The notes: generated from the letters alone by a model not told the origin. DNA of 64,000 nucleotides from a virus (IMGVR_UViG_3300009148_000002:10993-74992); one strand, 5' to 3'. Counted from the stretch's first letter, positions 13,883 through 64,000 are shown. Numbers and translations are program-made.

Positions 13883-16800
13883 TTAGGCGAAAATCCTTCT
13901 GCGCCGCCTGCGTCTGATCGTAGCGAGCCTGCTACCGCGCCGCAGCGACGAACGCGGGCGTATGCGCCGACTTCGACCGAGCAGGCTACGCCCACGCGAA
14001 AGAACGCGGATGCCGCCAGCGGCCACGCCTGAGCCAAGGCTGATCCTTTGCGATGGTCCTAGCGAAAGGCTTGGAAAGCTCGTGCCAGACGCGACGGGCG
14101 TTGCGCCTACGGAGGCCAGCGCCGTATTGCTGGCATTGCGATACGCCTGCTGGACAACTTTCCGCGCTTCCGCTTCAGGCAATCCAGACACATCGACGTT
14201 TTGCAATGCCGCCTTGAAAGCTTGCCCTCGCGCCACGACGTATTTCTCAAGTTCTTCCGGTTTCATTGGCCGGATCGTGCCGTTGAAATCGTAGCCTTTG
14301 TTTCGTCCCACTTCCGGCGTCGAGTAGTTCGCCATGAAGATTTGCTGATAGGCATGATTGGCTTTCAGATCGTCTTCTGAACCAAAACCTACACCGCCAG
14401 TCAACACCTGCAAAACCCGCGTGGCCGCATTCGGATTCACCAACGGATCACCGAGCGAATTAACGCGCTGATGCGGACTCCACGGATTTGGTGTGAGCAG
14501 TTCAAGCACCGTCGCAGTGCGCGTGTCCATGCTCGTGCCTAACATGCGCGAGACTTCCTGCCATGCCGGTATGCCGGGCAGATACGGCGCGGCGAGCGAG
14601 GCAACCGCCTTGTTCAGCTTGAAATCACCGTAATCAGAGAATGACTGAATCGCTCCCGTGGCCGTCCGACCGCCTGTGAACGCACCGTAGATGCCTTGGG
14701 CGATGACGCCAAGCATGTCACCCAACCCGACCGGCTTAACCTTTCCGGCGATTGTTCCTTTGCGCTTTGCCTCGGCGTCGAGTCGCGCCTGTTCGCGAGC
14801 TTGGTTGGAATAGAGGCGCTGAATCCCGCCAATCATGTAGAGCGGCGAGGCGACGAAGCTAAACGGCGACATCTGGATCGGATACGCAGCCCACTGCTTG
14901 CCGTCATCGGACAGAAACTCAACCGTGTTCAGCTTGTGACCACCCGCAATGAACTTTTCCTTTTCCTCTTTGTCCTTCGGATATTGCGTGTGAACGATCA
15001 GCTTGCCAGCCGCCGCTAGCGCAGTCAGGACGCCGATTGCCGCCAAGCCTTCGATAGCCTCGATGCGCCGCTGCCGGATATTGCGTTCGCCTTGATACCA
15101 CGGTGAGTCGCCGAAGCCCCAACCGCCGAACAGCCCGCCGCCCATAAACGTCAGCATCCGGTTGGTTGCCGTGCCCATTGCGTTACCGAACGAGAACAGT
15201 CCGCCAAGCGGCACGCCACGCTCCTGAGCCGCCTTGCGGATACCTCCAATAGTCGAAGCAATGATACCTCCGACACCACCTGTCTCTGGTAAATTCCAAC
15301 CGTAAAGCTCGCGCAACATCTGATTCTCAGCACGGAAATCCGTGGCGCTGCCGGTCGCCTTCTGCATTTGATCGTAAGTCGTGTTCAGCAGAATTGCCCA
15401 AGCATTCTTCTCAAGCTCTTTCTTGTCCGTTGGCAAGCCACGTTCCTCAGCACTGAGTCTGGCTTCTTCAATCGCCTGAGTCATGGCCACGCGAATGTTG
15501 CCGAAGATTTCGTCCTCTACCATTTTGATCTGCGCTGCGTTCTTGCCTTGCGCACGCAATTCCGTAACAAGTTGCTGGCGCATCTCCTGCCACTCCGCAC
15601 CGACGGCCTGTGCCACGTCCAGCGTAGCAGCCACGCGATAGCCAGCGCGAAGGATTGTAGCCGTTCGGATGGCTCGCGCTGCGGCCATGTTGCCTTTCGC
15701 CTCCAATTCATCCGCCTTGGCCAGCATTCTGTCGAAGATGCCGATGCTTTGTTTCATGCGGTCGAGTGTCTTTTGATCCGCCGCACCGTGGAGCGTTGCC
15801 TTCATTGCCCGCCACGTTTCCTTGAACGATTCGACGCTCGCCTTGGACATTTCCGTGAGAGATGCGTGTAAATCAGCCAGCGTTTGCCGGCTGAATCCAC
15901 CATCCGCCGCCGCTCTTTCGAGAACGTGAGCAAGCGCACGGTTGGCACGGTTCAACGGGATGGAAACAATCCCGGCGTCCATGAACTGACGGACAAGGAA
16001 ACCGAACTTGAAAAGCAGGTTCGCTGCCGCCACTTCATCGGCAGCCTTCGCGTTATTCTTGGCCACGGTCGGATTCGTCAACCATTGCGACCACTTGATC
16101 GGCATGGACCAGCGCGACCAATTGGCCTGAATCTTCTTGATAAGCTCTAAGCGTTGAGTTTGGGTTGCTGCCTCTGCCGCGCTGGTTGCCTTGGCCACAT
16201 CACCGCCCGCATCGGCGAGTTGACGTGGTGATGGTGTTCGCAGCCTGATTTCTTCCTCAGCCCAAGCTTTAAGTTGCGCCTTCTGCTCCGGCGTCGGCAC
16301 GGTCCACTTGTTCGCACGGGCGTTTTCTTCCAAGGCGCTCTCGGCGTCGAAATATCCCGCACGCACACCGCGCTCAATCGCCTGCCAGAGCGTCTTGCCT
16401 TTCTTGATCTCGCGCTTCTGCTGCGGGCCAAGCTCGGCCTTCACCTTATCCAGAGCTTTCGTCCGCGCCCTGAGCAGCGGCCCCGGAGATTCCTTGGTTC
16501 CTTCAAGTGATTTGTAGATGAGGTTCGCCAGTTCATCCGCTTGATCGCCGGTTAACCCAAGGCGCTTCACCAGTGCATCAGAAATGTCCTGTTTGATCTC
16601 GTTGAGATTGTAGCGCGGCGATTCCAGAATCGTGTTCATCAATTCCGTCATCGAAGGCAGGAGCTTTCGGATGGATGAATTCTCGGCAGCGCGTTGGAGT
16701 AGTTCTGGATCGCTCAGGCGAGGATCGTCGAGTAATCCGGCGTTAATCTTCTCACGCAAGGAACGCAGTTTGTCCGGGTCTGTGACGCTCGCGGCCCTCT

Positions 16801-53629: not shown

Positions 53630-53863
53630 ATGAAACCAATTTTCAGCGAGCCTAATGTTCGGCACGAAACCGATATTGACGCTCGGCTTCTGGAGTGGAG
53701 AAAAGAAAAGTTCGCTGTGGAGGTTAAGCTTGAAAGGCATCCTCTGGAAGATGGTCAAGTGTGTCTGAGCGTAACCAGCAACGGCACGCAATGGACTTCA
53801 ATAAGCCTGTTGAAAAGTGAAGTGAAAAAGGTAATCGAAGCGCTAAAAGCAAAACTCAAATGA
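53630..53863 (+). CDS. hypothetical protein
   Basis: First gene after promoter. Confidence 0.6.
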   Translation: MKPIFSEPNVRHETDIDARLLEWRKEKFAVEVKLERHPLEDGQVCLSVTSNGTQWTSISLLKSEVKKVIEALKAKLK

Positions 53864-54189
53864 AAGATCAAATCAAACTCGGACAAATAATCGAAGGCGA
53901 GGCGCATAGGGATGCAGTTCATGTGGCCATAGCGCCAGTGATGGCTGGATGCACACTTTCTCCCGGAGAGCGTGTAGGATTTATTGAAAACGGAGTTGTT
54001 GGGTGTGTGTTGCCACATGTCGGCGTCGTCGATCCGTTCTTACCAAAGCCAGTTTGGTTTGGAGAGACGTGCTGGCTATTTTTATTTCCGAACACAGTCA
54101 CCGATCTGCGGCATTCTTGGAGCCATCCTGCGTTCAAAGAGCAGGCTCCTGTTAAGGATGAAGGCGATTACGAAGATTGCGCCTGCTAA
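53860..54189 (+). CDS. conserved phage hypothetical protein
   Basis: RDAVHVAIAPV...PG..VG...VGVVDPFL...WLFLFPNT..DLRH.WSHPAF pattern. Confidence 0.7.
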   Translation: MKDQIKLGQIIEGEAHRDAVHVAIAPVMAGCTLSPGERVGFIENGVVGCVLPHVGVVDPFLPKPVWFGETCWLFLFPNTVTDLRHSWSHPAFKEQAPVKDEGDYEDCAC

Positions 54190-55539: not shown

Positions 55540-56223
55540 ATGACAAAAACAGAAATCAAAATCGCGGTGACATTCACCGAATCGGTGCTCGGCTCTCTGC
55601 CGGGCAATCCACAACTCATGGAAGATTACATCGTCACTAAGATGGCGAAGGATAAAGGCAAGACGCCTGACATCGTGAAGAAAAACTCAGCCGAAAAAAT
55701 TGCGGCGGTTTCCGATCCTGACACGGCGGACGAGCGTATTGAGAAGGCGACCACGGTTTTCGCTCGCGACGAGAAAGGGCTGTTCTGTTGGGACTACACC
55801 TGGAGAGGATTCTTGAAGGAGTCTATTTCCGTGCTGATCGAACTCGGTGAGGCGTCCGTGAAGAAGCTCTCCAAGTGGTCGTGCAAGCGGTCGGTGGATT
55901 CTCTGGTGTTCGTTGCGCCGCGACGGATTTATTTCCGTGACGACAAGGACAGGCCGATCATGCAACCGGAGTCGATTTGTGAAAGGCCGTTGCGAGCGTC
56001 AACGATGCAGGGAGATAGGATCGCACTGGCGCGGTCGGAACTGCTTCCGGCTGGCACAAACTGTCAGTTCACGATCACGCTGCTGGAAGGCACAAACGCG
56101 AAGTCGAATCTGGCCGTGCTGACGAAGGACTCGATCATCGAGGCATTGGAGTACGGAGCAATGAAGGGTTATGGCCAGTGGCGCGGAGGGTCATTTGGAC
56201 GTTTCAGCTACAAAGAACTGTAA
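55540..56223 (+). CDS. solo Cas7/RAMP-superfamily-like RNA-binding protein
   Basis: N-terminal strand IKIAVTFTESVLGS, helix DYTWRGFLKE (cf. RAMP 'ipGSsiKGalR'), RPLRA..MQGDRIALARSELLPAGT thumb-like segment, Gly-rich terminal loop YGAMKGYGQWRGGSFGRF plus last strand. No other cas gene in window. Confidence 0.8.
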   Translation: MTKTEIKIAVTFTESVLGSLPGNPQLMEDYIVTKMAKDKGKTPDIVKKNSAEKIAAVSDPDTADERIEKATTVFARDEKGLFCWDYTWRGFLKESISVLIELGEASVKKLSKWSCKRSVDSLVFVAPRRIYFRDDKDRPIMQPESICERPLRASTMQGDRIALARSELLPAGTNCQFTITLLEGTNAKSNLAVLTKDSIIEALEYGAMKGYGQWRGGSFGRFSYKEL

Positions 56224-56235
56224 AAGCAAGTCGCC

Positions 56236-56298
56236 ATGTTGGGATTCACCATCGGAATAATATTCGGACTGCTGTGGTGCTATGTCTATGAAGATTGA
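56236..56298 (+). CDS. 20-aa hydrophobic micro-ORF
   Basis: MLGFTIGIIFGLLWCYVYED; overlaps next ORF. Confidence 0.3.
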   Translation: MLGFTIGIIFGLLWCYVYED

Positions 56299-56482
56299 CG
56301 AGAATGGTTTGGACTACGTTGGGCCTTGCAAAATAGACTGCGAGCAAAAGTGCGATGTGCCGGACGGCGTTACGCTGTATCCAGTGCCTCGCCCGCGACA
56401 CAACTGGACAGACTGCCTGCACTGCCCGAACTGCGAGCGGTCATTCATGGTGATGAAACGCAGTAGTCCGAACAGTGAATAA
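56282..56482 (+). CDS. small Cys-rich (zinc-binding) protein
   Basis: C...C...C and CLHCPNC; lies between Cas7-like gene and array. Confidence 0.55.
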   Translation: MSMKIDENGLDYVGPCKIDCEQKCDVPDGVTLYPVPRPRHNWTDCLHCPNCERSFMVMKRSSPNSE

Positions 56483-56970
56483 AGCAATGTTTCAGCAAAG
56501 CGTAGAGTAGATCAGTGGAGGCATGGCACAGCAACGTGGAGACAAGCCTAGGAAAAGCAGAGAACCGACGGGCATAGGCAAAGCGGCGAAACGCTATGCG
56601 GCGGATTAGCAATGAATGGACAAGTAACGCGACGGGCAAGGCCAAGCGCGAAAGGGCAAAGGCAAGGCAAGGGAGTAGCAGAGTAAGGATCAGCAGTGGC
56701 ATAGCTGGGTCTGGCTTGGGATATGAGAAGCGAAGACAAGTGATGCTCAGGCATGGCAGAGGACAGCAACGCTGAGGCACGGTTAGGGTAAGCAACGCGA
56801 AGGCATGGCAGCGCGAGGACACGCTTGGGAATAGTCCAGCAACGTCCGGTAAAGGCAATGCGTCGTAGTGTCAGAACTGCGTTGGTGAAGTGAAGCGGTG
56901 ATTCGCGATGCGACGGCATGGTGAAGCACTGGACAGCAGTGGCATGGCGCGGTCGTGAGAAGCCGGGTTA
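56483..56970 (+). repeat. pentamer-periodic non-coding array (nG-N-NN units, often RGC-NN); putative guide RNA locus
   Basis: About 95 units by hand parse, G at position 2 in all but one, e.g. agcaa agcgt agagt agatc agtgg a ggcat ggcac agcaa cgtgg agaca agcct; no credible ORF; ends at a terminator. Confidence 0.85.
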
Positions 56971-57002
56971 GGCGCTGGTGGGAAACCGCCAGCGCTTTTT
57001 CT
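56970..57002 (+). terminator. intrinsic terminator closing the array
   Basis: GCGCTGGTGG-GAAA-CCGCCAGCGC followed by TTTTT. Confidence 0.9.
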
Positions 57003-57378
57003 ATGGCCGGAGAGGTTTCAATTCTGGAATGCACCGCTCGCACTCGTCTCGAATAGACCAAAATTGAGAGATCATGTCAGTGTCGCTGTTTACCTTTGGC
57101 CTAGCTGAGTGGTAGTGCATCGCCGCAATGGACGCCCTCAATACTCCAGCCTCCGCATTCGCCTTTTCAAGCGCCTGAAACAAGTCGTGCTCCACTTTGG
57201 TTGCCGGCCTCGACTTTCCACCTGGCCATGTGATGATCGTGTGCGGCCAAGGACCACCGATAACAACACCGTCCGGCAACGGAACTGTAGAGTGAAGGGC
57301 CGGATTAACTTCACCCACCCACTGCGTCACTGGGATTTCAGGCTCGTCCGTTCCGGGCTGTAGTCTGTTGTCGATCAT
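57001..57378 (-). CDS. hypothetical protein
   Basis: Leaderless promoter upstream; convergent with array. Confidence 0.6.
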   Translation of the reverse strand: MIDNRLQPGTDEPEIPVTQWVGEVNPALHSTVPLPDGVVIGGPWPHTIITWPGGKSRPATKVEHDLFQALEKANAEAGVLRASIAAMHYHSARPKVNSDTDMISQFWSIRDECERCIPELKPLRP

Positions 57379-63417: not shown

Positions 63418-64000
63418 ATGTGCGATTTTAATAGCACTGCTTGGCGCATGATCGGCCAAGACATGCAGTGCGCTCACCTGCCATCAAACTCGCATTCGGA
63501 AGCAATCAAAGCTGCCGGATGGCGAGACAACGAACCGAATCGAAAGACAATCATCTTTGAGGCCGAATGGGATGGCCAAGGCGACATGCCTTCCAGTGAA
63601 AAACTGATCCGTAACTGCGCCGAGTGTCCCGAACGCTTGGTTAAGCGCATTCGGTCGCACTACTCCAAGCTGCAAGAGGCTATCACTTCCGGCAAATATT
63701 TGGACACGTATTTTTCCGACACCGAAAAGTGGCACGATGTCTGGACTGCCGCGATGAAAAATGACGTGACGCCAGACTTTTCATACGTCACTAGCTTTGC
63801 TGGCTACATCTACGTGAGGGAAAACGCCACGCTCACGGCTCCGGCTCTAGTGAAGGCTGGCAACATCGACGTGATGAAAAACGCCACGCTCACGGCTCCG
63901 GCTCTAGTGAAGGCTGGCAACATCTACGTGAGGGAAAACGCCACGCTCACGGCTCCGGCTCTAGCTGAAGTGGCTGGCTACATCTACGTGATGGAAAACG
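63418..64000 (+). CDS. partial ORF with L-domain/LRR-like solenoid repeats (runs off window)
   Basis: ATG 63418 open to the end: MCDFNSTAWR...AGYIYVRENATLTAPALVKAGNIDVMKNATLTAPAL... Confidence 0.75.
   Translation, partial: MCDFNSTAWRMIGQDMQCAHLPSNSHSEAIKAAGWRDNEPNRKTIIFEAEWDGQGDMPSSEKLIRNCAECPERLVKRIRSHYSKLQEAITSGKYLDTYFSDTEKWHDVWTAAMKNDVTPDFSYVTSFAGYIYVRENATLTAPALVKAGNIDVMKNATLTAPALVKAGNIYVRENATLTAPALAEVAGYIYVMEN
63799..64000 (+). repeat. 57-60 nt tandem coding repeats
   Basis: Units start 63799, 63856, 63913, 63973; near-identical except a few non-synonymous sites. Confidence 0.9.

What the first reader, a model, noticed from the sequence alone, without database searches (positions are those of the whole stretch)
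56493..56970. Second-level code in the array: pentamers grouped in 5n+1-nt blocks, mostly 26 or 31 nt, each opened by one extra base plus GG
Seen by hand parse: the 5-nt register slips by one base about every 5-6 units, and each slip can be placed directly before a GG-starting unit (often ggcat/ggcaa). Block starts: 56493, 56519, 56550, 56576, 56602, 56633, 56660, 56671, 56697, 56718, 56749, 56785, 56801, 56827, 56853, 56883, 56914, 56940. Lengths: 26,31,26,26,31,27,11,26,21,31,36,16,26,26,30,31,26,31, so 12 of 18 are 26 or 31 and only two are not 5n+1. Simple slippage would not give such regular blocks while the NN positions stay diverse. Inference: each block is a separate guide unit (5-6 subunits, 10-12 specifying bases) and the +1/GG junction is a processing site or filament boundary, i.e. 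a multiplexed array without CRISPR repeats. Slip placement is my choice where ambiguous.
Basis: partly seen in the sequence, partly recalled or inferred. Interest (0 to 1): 0.85.

Follow-up and report, generated by a model that had tools for sequence, protein, structure and literature searches.

The report
Block-structured VIPR guide-RNA array in phage
The stretch is the guide-RNA array of a phage VIPR system (a solo Cas7-like protein plus a pentamer-repeat RNA, first described in 2026 preprints), and its pentamers really are grouped into 26- or 31-base modules that related phages gain, lose and swap whole, much as CRISPR arrays do with spacers.

Summary
Window 56484-56969 (+) is a purine-rich, unstructured, non-coding tract of about 95 units. 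Most units are 5 nt (G + 4), and every 5th or 6th unit is 6 nt (GG + 4, usually GGCA). Blocks of 4-6 units make up 79% of the array, against 23% under a random-slip null (0 of 200 simulations).

The gene upstream (55540-56223) folds as a Cas7/Csm3-like RAMP. Its homologues in 90 of 90 loci carry a same-strand array of mean period 5.12-5.25 nt. Over 1126 blocks, the commonest lengths are 26 and 31 nt.

This matches VIPR (bioRxiv 10.64898/2026.04.26.720920), a solo RAMP with pentamer guide RNAs, so the kind is known. That preprint also mentions untested "staggered" arrays, which are probably this architecture.

New here:
- the block grammar (GGCAaa ... GCAAn);
- block size of about one Vipr filament turn;
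- in 23 related gut phages, arrays that are colinear mosaics of shared blocks differing by whole-block insertion, deletion or replacement.

This supports blocks as separate guide modules. RNA processing, the pairing rule and the targets remain untested; my target searches found nothing.

The parts
55540..56223 (+). vipr-like gene: solo Cas7/Csm3-like RAMP protein, 227 aa (P0001), with C-terminal G-loop GYGQWRGGSFGRF
   Evidence: No Pfam or PHROG hit. AF2 model has pLDDT 91.7. Foldseek top hits are type VII Cas7 (E 1.6e-8) and Csm3. VIA-align gives Z 12.0 to Csm3 9g9a_D and Z 11.2 to type VII Cas7. The profile hits PDB Cas7 and Csm4 G-loop regions. hhalign aligns the G-loop to SUSP1 Vipr GVGDWRP-RFGRF. 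The family has 1366 cluster representatives at E<1e-3.
56282..56482 (+). 66-aa Cys-rich (zinc-ribbon-like) ORF between vipr and the array; role unknown, possibly a lineage-specific accessory gene or not a gene
   Evidence: ORF list and translation. No Pfam or PHROG hit. No tblastn match in 89 other vipr loci.
56484..56969 (+). vrRNA-type array: about 95 units of GNNNN with a GGNNNN (mostly GGCAWN) unit every 5-6 units, giving about 19 blocks, mostly of 26 or 31 nt
   Evidence: Autocorrelation and Fourier period 5.20 nt. HMM parse. Null simulations. HMM with a background state calls 56484-56985 as the only such tract in the window. The RNA fold is no more stable than shuffles, z = +0.85. No Rfam family matches.
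56970..57001 (+). intrinsic terminator closing the vipr-array transcription unit (12-bp stem, GAAA loop, T run)
   Evidence: Terminator scan and direct reading. Arrays in L001 and L007 also end in a hairpin followed by a T run.

Best explanation
This is a VIPR locus (Viral Interference Programmable Repeat) of a metagenomic phage. A solo, Cas7-like Vipr protein is co-transcribed with a tail-less guide-RNA array.

By analogy with the solved SUSP1 system (inferred), Vipr protomers bind the RNA one per unit, gripping the fixed G. In this clade the preferred fixed triplet is GCA rather than GGY. The variable bases are exposed to read foreign DNA, probably from competing phages.

The second-level structure is real. 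The array is a chain of modules of 4-7 units, most often 5 or 6, which gives 26 or 31 nt. Each module opens with a 6-nt unit GGCAaa and closes with GCAAn, with G+4N units between.

The extra G puts successive modules one base out of register. The inference is that this breaks the strictly 5-nt protomer-to-protomer lattice, so each module nucleates its own short filament of about one helical turn. Each module would then act, and perhaps be cut out, as a separate guide.

What is shown:
- the grammar;
- its conservation across the clade;
- the modular turnover of blocks between related phages.

What is inferred: RNA binding, filament boundaries, processing and DNA targeting.
For: Protein fold and homology:
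- P0001 has a RAMP/Cas7 fold with high confidence.
- Its G-loop aligns with that of SUSP1 Vipr. W and R, which hold G2 and Y3 in the cryo-EM structure, are kept as W214 and R215, both nearly invariant. The G1-reading Asp is Gln here. This fits a unit with one fixed G.

Gene-array linkage:
- 90 of 90 loci have a same-strand array abutting the gene, upstream or downstream. The HMM.6 kb on the gene strand against 5.0 kb on the other.

Conserved grammar:
- 83 distinct arrays hold 6657 units: 5388 of 5 nt, 1209 of 6 nt and 60 of 4 nt.
- They hold 1126 blocks, peaking at 26 nt (304) and 31 nt (307), then 36 nt (133) and 21 nt (113).
- Every array has a mean unit length of 5.12-5.25 nt.
- The block consensus is GGCaaa Gca.. 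Gc... Gc... GCaa..
- The random-slip null is rejected.

Modularity:
- 23 gut-phage arrays are colinear mosaics of shared blocks.
- Only 11 of 1347 shared-block pairs are in inverted order.
- 19 block families occur in more than one neighbour context, and one occurs in 17.
- Within-family substitutions rise from 0 at the extra G and 0.05 at the fixed G to 0.30 at the last variable position.

Turnover: vipr genes 89% identical at the nucleotide level carry unalignable arrays.

Transcription unit: the array is unstructured, has no promoter of its own, and ends in a terminator.

Literature:
- VIPR is a solo RAMP plus a pentamer vrRNA that represses dsDNA targets (10.64898/2026.04.26.720920).
- Vipr filaments have 6 subunits per turn free and 5 per turn on target, with about 25 nt of RNA per turn (10.64898/2026.04.26.720927).
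Against: - There is no RNA-level evidence for expression, ends or processing.
- No target was found under any pairing rule, either in 0.6 Mb of local phage DNA or in two IMG/VR pattern scans. These searches were too small to count as evidence of absence.
- Sequence-level homology to the characterised SUSP1 Vipr is limited to the G-loop (hhalign probability 47%; no profile hit). Assignment to VIPR therefore rests on the fold, the G-loop and the array.
- If only two bases per unit pair, as in type II, a 5-6-unit module would specify only 10-12 bp, which is little for a stand-alone guide.
- The HMM used for the survey was trained on four arrays of this clade, so block calls elsewhere depend on the model. 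Fourier periods do not.
- Many surveyed loci come from one metagenome and are not independent.
Confidence: 0.72

Rival explanations
1. Same VIPR system, but the blocks are not separate guides. The whole array, or long stretches of it, is coated by one continuous Vipr filament. The extra G about once per helical turn is a structural spacer or hinge that keeps RNA, protein and a long DNA target in step.
For: Block size of 5-6 units equals the 5-6 subunits per turn of the SUSP1 filament. There are no 3' tails or ribozymes between blocks. Natural vrRNAs of up to 30 repeats are reported. A short module would specify little if only two bases per unit pair.
Against: A helically symmetric filament gives no reason for every fifth subunit to differ. 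Block sizes vary from 4 to 7 within one array. Blocks are inserted, deleted and replaced singly between related phages, and the same block works in up to 17 neighbour contexts, which would break a continuous guide. The conserved first and last units look like module ends.
Confidence: 0.15
2. The array acts as double-stranded DNA, for example as a centromere-like or origin-like binding-site lattice. Its 5.2-bp period is half the B-DNA helical repeat (10.4 bp), so a protein would bind alternate faces of the helix.
For: 5.2 x 2 = 10.4, which is a numerical coincidence. Some loci lie in replication or partition gene neighbourhoods: RecT, RusA and DnaC-like genes in L001, ParA and RHH in L009.
Against: The tract is strongly strand-asymmetric (G 0.37, C 0.19). 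It lies on the gene's strand in 90 of 90 loci. It ends in a terminator. The partner protein has an RNA-binding RAMP fold. Arrays turn over far faster than the gene, unlike cis-acting sites matched to a binding protein. The mean period also varies from 5.12 to 5.25 between clades.
Confidence: 0.04
3. The array is a decoy or sponge RNA rather than a set of guides. It would soak up Vipr or Cas7-type proteins of competing elements, or regulate the phage's own Vipr.
For: Satellite-encoded solo vrRNAs that redirect a phage's VIPR are reported (10.64898/2026.10.15.759431). No targets were found here.
Against: The array is always next to its own vipr gene. The variable positions are diverse, and block families are conserved across phages at those positions, which a pure sponge would not need.
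Confidence: 0.05
4. A decaying 26-nt tandem repeat or replication-slippage product with no function of its own.
For: TRF reports a 26-nt period over 56745-56811.
Against: The same grammar appears in 83 distinct arrays whose proteins are only 33-50% identical, and their sequences are unalignable. The fixed G is kept at 96% while the other positions are near-random.
Confidence: 0.02

Closest known systems
VIPR type II (Escherichia phage SUSP1, P. fulva prophage): Vipr + vrRNA (bioRxiv 10.64898/2026.04.26.720920 and 10.64898/2026.04.26.720927)
   Same: Both have a phage-encoded solo RAMP of about 200 aa with a G-loop ...G-x-W-R...GRF. Both have an adjacent same-strand RNA of tandem pentamers with fixed G-containing positions and variable positions. 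Neither has cas genes or CRISPR repeats.
   Different: SUSP1 vrRNAs keep one strict 5-nt register for 12-16 GGY-NN units. Each has a structured 3' tail of about 40 nt and its own leader (read directly). Here there is one fixed G per unit (GCA preferred) and no tails. The tract is continuous for 0.2-1 kb, with a +1 shift every 4-7 units. Protein similarity is detectable only in the G-loop.
'Staggered vrRNA arrays' (Fig. S18 of 10.64898/2026.04.26.720920)
   Same: [quoted passage not shown] This is probably the same architecture.
   Different: I could read only the legend. The text held gives no block length, junction motif, statistics or comparative data, and states that only the other two architectures were confirmed by sRNA-seq. 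'1 nt overlapping' would literally give 5n-1 blocks, not the 5n+1 seen here, so the equivalence is not certain.
Non-canonical VIPR arrays found by entropy periodicity (bioRxiv 10.64898/2026.10.21.760802)
   Same: Vipr-like fold next to 5-nt arrays whose fixed triplet is not GGY (for example GAC/NN, CAC/NN).
   Different: Those are described as about 10 repeats at period 5. No non-integer period or block level is mentioned.
Class 1 CRISPR crRNA on a Cas7 backbone
   Same: Both have a RAMP fold (Z 11-12 to Csm3 and type VII Cas7) and one protomer per short RNA segment with a displaced base. The array of modules, with conserved ends and a variable middle, turns over module by module.
   Different: CRISPR has a 6-nt period with no sequence requirement in the spacer, 25-40-nt repeats, Cas6 processing and Cas1-Cas2 acquisition. 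None of these is present here.

Membership tests
VIPR system | Solo RAMP protein (RRM core, G-loop, thumb) outside any CRISPR-Cas locus | tested here: met
   AF2 model pLDDT 91.7. Best structural matches are Cas7 and Csm3. The C-terminal G-loop is conserved. There are no CRISPR-like repeats in the window. Neighbouring ORFs have no Pfam hits.
VIPR system | Adjacent, co-oriented tandem pentanucleotide array with fixed G-containing positions and variable positions | tested here: met
   HMM: G 96% at one position, the others variable. Arrays lie on the same strand next to the gene in 90 of 90 loci.
VIPR system | Sequence homology to a characterised Vipr (SUSP1 YP_009199429.1) | tested here: inconclusive
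   The profile search of the SUSP1 genome found nothing. hhalign aligns only the G-loop (probability 47%, E 2e-4). The seed proteins of the preprint (for example X1U2U4) could not be obtained.
VIPR system | Canonical GGY/NN unit | tested here: not met
   The unit is G + (C) + (A) + NN. GG occurs only in the block-opening unit. The preprint accepts 'a related consensus' such as YNNNG or NNNNG for other types, so this does not exclude membership.
VIPR system | vrRNA is expressed and co-purifies with Vipr | not testable with these tools
Indirect evidence only: terminator, no separate promoter, unstructured RNA.
VIPR system | Gapped base pairing of variable positions to dsDNA targets in competing mobile elements | tested here: inconclusive
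   Scans under rules pairing 2, 3 or 4 positions per unit, with 0-3 skipped bases for the dinucleotide rules and 0-2 for the others, found nothing above controls in 0.6 Mb of local DNA. Two IMG/VR pattern scans found 0 hits. The searches were small and needed exact seeds.
VIPR type II architecture (vrRNA = 9-16 repeats + 3' pseudoknot tail) | Invariant structured tail of about 40 nt after each repeat tract | tested here: not met
   The array is continuous with no recurring non-periodic segment. The fold is no better than shuffles. SUSP1 tails are visible by eye.
CRISPR array | Direct repeats of 23-50 nt separated by unique spacers, with cas genes nearby | tested here: not met
   TRF finds no such repeats. 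The conserved junction is only about 11 nt.

The most novel reading that the evidence does not exclude
In this large Vipr clade the guide array is organised as a miniature repeat-spacer array. An 11-nt junction (GCAAn-G-GCAaa) alternates with 15-25 nt of G-phased variable sequence. Each module would be a single-turn, tail-less guide whose boundary is set simply by a 1-nt phase break in the protomer lattice. Modules are exchanged whole between phages without Cas1. That would be a concrete intermediate between pentamer vrRNAs and CRISPR repeat-spacer arrays. It would also imply a different pairing rule, with up to four informative bases per unit, from the published two-in-five code.
Probability: 0.3. 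Interest if true: 0.75.

Novelty: new member of a known kind. Interest (0 to 1): 0.5.

Why it matters
VIPR was described only in 2026, and only its type II form has been characterised (discrete vrRNAs with tails). This locus belongs to a very large, unannotated Vipr clade: 1366 cluster representatives and more than 550 IMG/VR loci.

Its arrays follow a different and very regular grammar. Modules are about one filament turn long, are delimited by a one-base phase shift, and are swapped whole between related phages.

If the modules are independent guides, three things follow:
- Phages can multiplex dozens of guides in a few hundred bases without repeats, tails or ribozymes.
- Filament length may be set by RNA phase alone.
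- The link proposed between VIPR and CRISPR arrays gains a plausible architectural intermediate.

For annotation, the HMM and the 5.12-5.25-nt period give a simple detector for these arrays.

Tried and rejected
- Rfam scan of 56200-57100 at E up to 10: only chance-level hits.
- Pfam and PHROGs on vipr and nine neighbours: nothing, except an unknown-function PHROG for ORF 53860-54189.
- The search for related loci with the single protein found no close relative, and the 54-sequence alignment was too diverse to search with. The 15-sequence alignment A2 worked.
- The A1 profile against the whole SUSP1 genome gave no hit.
- Target search in local DNA (window plus 89 loci, both strands):
  - dinucleotide rules at three position pairs with 0-3 skipped bases gave nothing above reversed-order controls;
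  - an apparent excess at skip 0 was one chance match repeated across near-identical loci plus low-complexity sequence;
  - skip 3 gave only self-hits of arrays;
  - 3- and 4-base rules with arrays masked gave nothing, and the few high scores were HMM calls running into the 3' end of vipr.
- Two IMG/VR exact-pattern scans with a conserved 36-nt gut-phage block (4 bases per unit, 0 or 1 skip): 0 hits.
- Exact search of metagenome contigs for the 3' end of this vipr gene, to find close relatives of this phage: 0 hits.
- Nucleotide-level pairwise alignment of related arrays was too noisy to place indel ends, because replaced blocks misalign. The block-family comparison was used instead.
- The first brute-force target scan timed out.
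- No neighbouring gene of the window is conserved in other loci, so no vap-type accessory gene could be named.

Full report
**What is in the sequence**

Window 56484-56969 (+) is a purine-rich tract (G 0.37, A 0.30). It directly follows a 227-aa gene (55540-56223) and a 66-aa Cys-rich ORF (56282-56482). It ends in a strong intrinsic terminator at 56970-57001.

Base autocorrelation peaks at lags 5, 10/11, 15/16, 21, 26, 31, 36, 47, 52 and 57, and lag 26 is the highest. The Fourier peak lies at 5.20 nt, not 5.00.

No other place in the 64-kb window, on either strand, has this property. The tract matches no Rfam family. As RNA it folds no better than shuffled controls (z = +0.85). A 5-nt period also excludes coding.

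I trained a cyclic five-state HMM by EM, with an optional insertion after every state and optional deletions. It was trained on this array and three related ones, without telling it where slips should go.

All restarts converged on the same picture:
- One position per unit is G in 96% of units.
- The next two lean to C (0.46) and A (0.47).
- The last two are close to random.
- Insertions occur at one site only, next to the fixed G. The inserted base is G in 93% of cases, and the rate is 0.22 per unit.

Units are thus GNNNN or GGNNNN. The Viterbi parse of the window gives 6-nt units at 20 positions. That is only a different convention for which base is 'extra'.

Where we differ (56493 and 56785), the HMM parse is the more regular one. 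Block lengths by my parse are 31, 31, 26, 26, 31, 6, 15, 6, 11, 26, 21, 31, 26, 26, 26, 26, 30, 31, 26.

**Is the spacing more regular than random slippage?**

I simulated 200 sequences per array from the fitted HMM, in which slips are geometric, and parsed them in the same way.

| Measure (window array) | Observed | Null |
|---|---|---|
| Blocks of 4-6 units | 79% | 23 +/- 10% |
| CV of block size | 0.35 | 0.82 |
| Parse-free autocorrelation at lags 47/52/57 | 0.164 | 0.029 +/- 0.032 |

No simulation reached the observed value on any of these three measures. The three related arrays gave the same result.

**The neighbouring gene**

P0001 has no Pfam or PHROG match, but it belongs to a very large family. 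There are 1366 representatives at E < 1e-3 in the 50%-identity library, almost all viral.

An AlphaFold model built on 54 homologues is confident (pLDDT 91.7). Its best structural matches are Cas7-type RAMPs:
- type VII Cas7 (Foldseek E 1.6e-8);
- Csm3 (VIA-align Z 12.0, 161 residues, rmsd 4.0);
- Cmr4 and the Cas7 domains of gRAMP.

The family profile also touches the G-loop regions of Cas7 and Csm4 chains in the PDB. The earlier scan note on 55540-57002, 'solo Cas7/RAMP-like gene plus pentamer RNA array', is therefore borne out.

**The gene and the array travel together**

Every homologous locus I fetched has a tract of the same kind, on the gene's strand, abutting the gene either downstream or upstream.

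With 80 more IMG/VR loci and an HMM that includes a background state:
- 90 of 90 loci carry a same-strand array of at least 100 nt next to the gene.
- The HMM.6 kb as array on the gene strand and 5.0 kb on the other.
- A stricter Fourier criterion finds tracts in 46 of the 80 loci. All are on the gene strand, and all have periods of 5.12-5.22 nt.

**What it is**

A literature search shows that this is the VIPR system, described in April 2026 (bioRxiv 10.64898/2026.04.26.720920). A phage-encoded solo RAMP (Vipr) polymerises on a vrRNA made of GGY-NN pentamers. The NN dinucleotides read double-stranded DNA with one target base skipped per unit, and this silences competing phages and satellites.

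The companion cryo-EM paper (10.64898/2026.04.26.720927) shows:
- one protomer per pentamer;
- a right-handed filament with six subunits per turn when free, and five per turn (about 25 nt of RNA) on target;
- G1 read by H17 and D177, G2 by R138 and W178, and Y3 by R179.

hhalign aligns the G-loop of my family (GYGQWRGGSFGRF) with that of SUSP1 Vipr (GVGDWRP-RFGRF). W and R are kept and are nearly invariant in the family, but the G1-reading Asp is Gln. That fits a unit with a single fixed G.

Beyond the G-loop, sequence similarity to SUSP1 Vipr is not detectable. Membership therefore rests on the fold, the G-loop and the array.

**How this array differs from the characterised ones**

I read the SUSP1 locus directly. 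Its four vrRNAs each keep one strict 5-nt register for 12-16 units, followed by a structured tail.

The arrays of the present clade have no tails. They run on for 0.2-1 kb and shift register by +1 at regular intervals.

The first preprint lists other architectures, including 'staggered arrays with overlapping vrRNAs'. [quoted passage not shown] The preprint says that only the other two architectures were confirmed by sRNA-seq.

This is probably the same phenomenon. I could read only the legend, and a literal 1-nt overlap would give 5n-1 blocks, not 5n+1.

**The grammar across the clade**

The survey covers 83 distinct arrays:
- 6657 units: 5388 of 5 nt, 1209 of 6 nt and 60 of 4 nt.
- 1126 blocks, with a sharply peaked size distribution: 4 units (123), 5 (307), 6 (315), 7 (153). 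A geometric null would decline monotonically from 205 blocks at size 1.
- In nucleotides: 26 nt (304), 31 (307), 36 (133), 21 (113).
- Every array has a mean unit length between 5.12 and 5.25 nt.
- The median CV of block size per array is 0.27, and some arrays reach 0.06-0.15.

Block consensus: GGCaaa Gca.. Gc... Gc... GCaa. The first and last units keep a full GCA triplet, while internal units keep only the G and a weak C. The junction GCAAn-G-GCAaa is thus a conserved motif of about 11 nt, and the 15-25 nt between junctions are variable but G-phased.

**Are blocks functional modules?**

Twenty-three gut-phage loci have vipr genes 85-100% identical at the nucleotide level and arrays of 171-531 nt.

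Cut at the GG units, their 152 distinct blocks fall into 68 families, and the arrays are colinear mosaics of these families:
- There are 19 different block orders among the 23 arrays.
- Only 11 of 1347 shared-block pairs are in inverted order.
- The arrays differ by insertion, deletion or replacement of whole blocks.
- Nineteen families occur in more than one neighbour context, and one occurs in 17.

Within families, the share of variable columns rises along the unit:

| Unit position | Share variable |
|---|---|
| Extra G | 0 |
| Fixed G | 0.05 |
| Position 2 | 0.15 |
| Position 3 | 0.22 |
| Position 4 | 0.26 |
| Position 5 | 0.30 |

Separately, two phages with 89% identical vipr genes have arrays that cannot be aligned at all. 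Blocks are therefore the units of array evolution and function independently of their neighbours. A continuous multi-block guide would not tolerate that.

**Mechanism proposed, and what is inferred**

The fixed G, the grammar, the gene linkage and the modular turnover are shown. The following steps are inferred:
- Vipr protomers bind one per unit, as in SUSP1.
- Each module forms its own filament of 4-7 protomers, about one helical turn.
- Two neighbouring protomers jointly hold each fixed motif in a strict 5-nt lattice. The extra G therefore puts the next module out of phase and ends one filament where the next begins.
- The exposed junction may then be trimmed by a host RNase or by Vipr itself.

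How many bases per unit pair with the target is unknown. If only two do, as in type II, a module specifies just 10-12 bp. The lack of any fixed base other than G in internal units suggests that up to four may carry information.

**Targets**

I looked for targets under rules pairing two, three or four positions per unit. The dinucleotide rules used 0-3 skipped bases and the others 0-2, each with reversed-unit controls.

Two exact-pattern scans of IMG/VR with a conserved 36-nt block gave no hit. These searches are far too small and rigid to count against targeting.

RNA-seq evidence could not be sought, and the complex predictor was unavailable.

**Rivals**

- A continuous filament with a once-per-turn spacer nucleotide is the main alternative (0.15). 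It is disfavoured by the variable block sizes and the single-block turnover.
- A DNA-level reading, with 5.2 bp as half a helical turn, is unlikely. The tract is strand-asymmetric and co-oriented with the gene, it ends in a terminator, its partner has an RNA-binding fold, and its period varies between clades.
- A sponge RNA or a meaningless decayed repeat does not explain why particular variable sequences are conserved across phages.

**Verdict**

The locus is a new member of a known kind. The quantified block grammar, its match to the filament turn, and the CRISPR-like modular turnover are the parts that add to what is published.

Noticed in passing
window 63799-64000: A 57-nt tandem repeat (3.5 copies, 91% matches) runs off the window end, inside an open frame that starts at 63418. 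Because 57 nt is 19 codons, it is probably a repeat within a protein.
   Followed up: no
window 56282-56482: A 66-aa ORF with four Cys pairs (zinc-ribbon-like) sits between vipr and the array. It has no family hit and no counterpart in 89 other vipr loci, so this clade shows no conserved accessory (vap) gene in the loci examined.
   Followed up: partly
L019 2104-2918 and 3619-4206; L038/L041/L042/L044/L046/L050/L053 2618-2915 and 3604-3845: Some phages carry two arrays, one upstream and one downstream of vipr, both on the gene strand. This recalls the upstream plus downstream vrRNAs of SUSP1.
   Followed up: no
L009 4659-5088 and 6565-6997: A more distant homologue (P0024) has two very G-rich array-like tracts flanking a ParA-type ATPase gene, followed by an RHH gene. 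Here the VIPR-like module is embedded in a partition cassette, perhaps of a phage-plasmid.
   Followed up: no
L006 3587-4279 (Hydrogenobaculum phage 1, KP282676, record about 14750-15450): The cultured thermophile phage HP1 encodes a distant homologue (21% identity, ALG96927.1). It is followed by a C-poor tract of about 690 nt that the HMM calls an array (mean unit 5.17 nt, irregular blocks), and an annotated 56-aa CDS lies inside the tract. The Fourier test did not flag it, so the call is weak.
   Followed up: partly
L007 4735-5190: In one lineage a NADAR-domain gene lies between vipr and the array.
   Followed up: no
window 56445-56858 and 56548-56919, minus strand: Two long ORFs (137 and 123 aa) lie antisense to the array. 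They are most likely shadow frames left open by the stop-poor, purine-rich repeat and not genes, and gene callers may annotate them. A similar small CDS is called inside arrays in L002, L003 and L006.
   Followed up: partly
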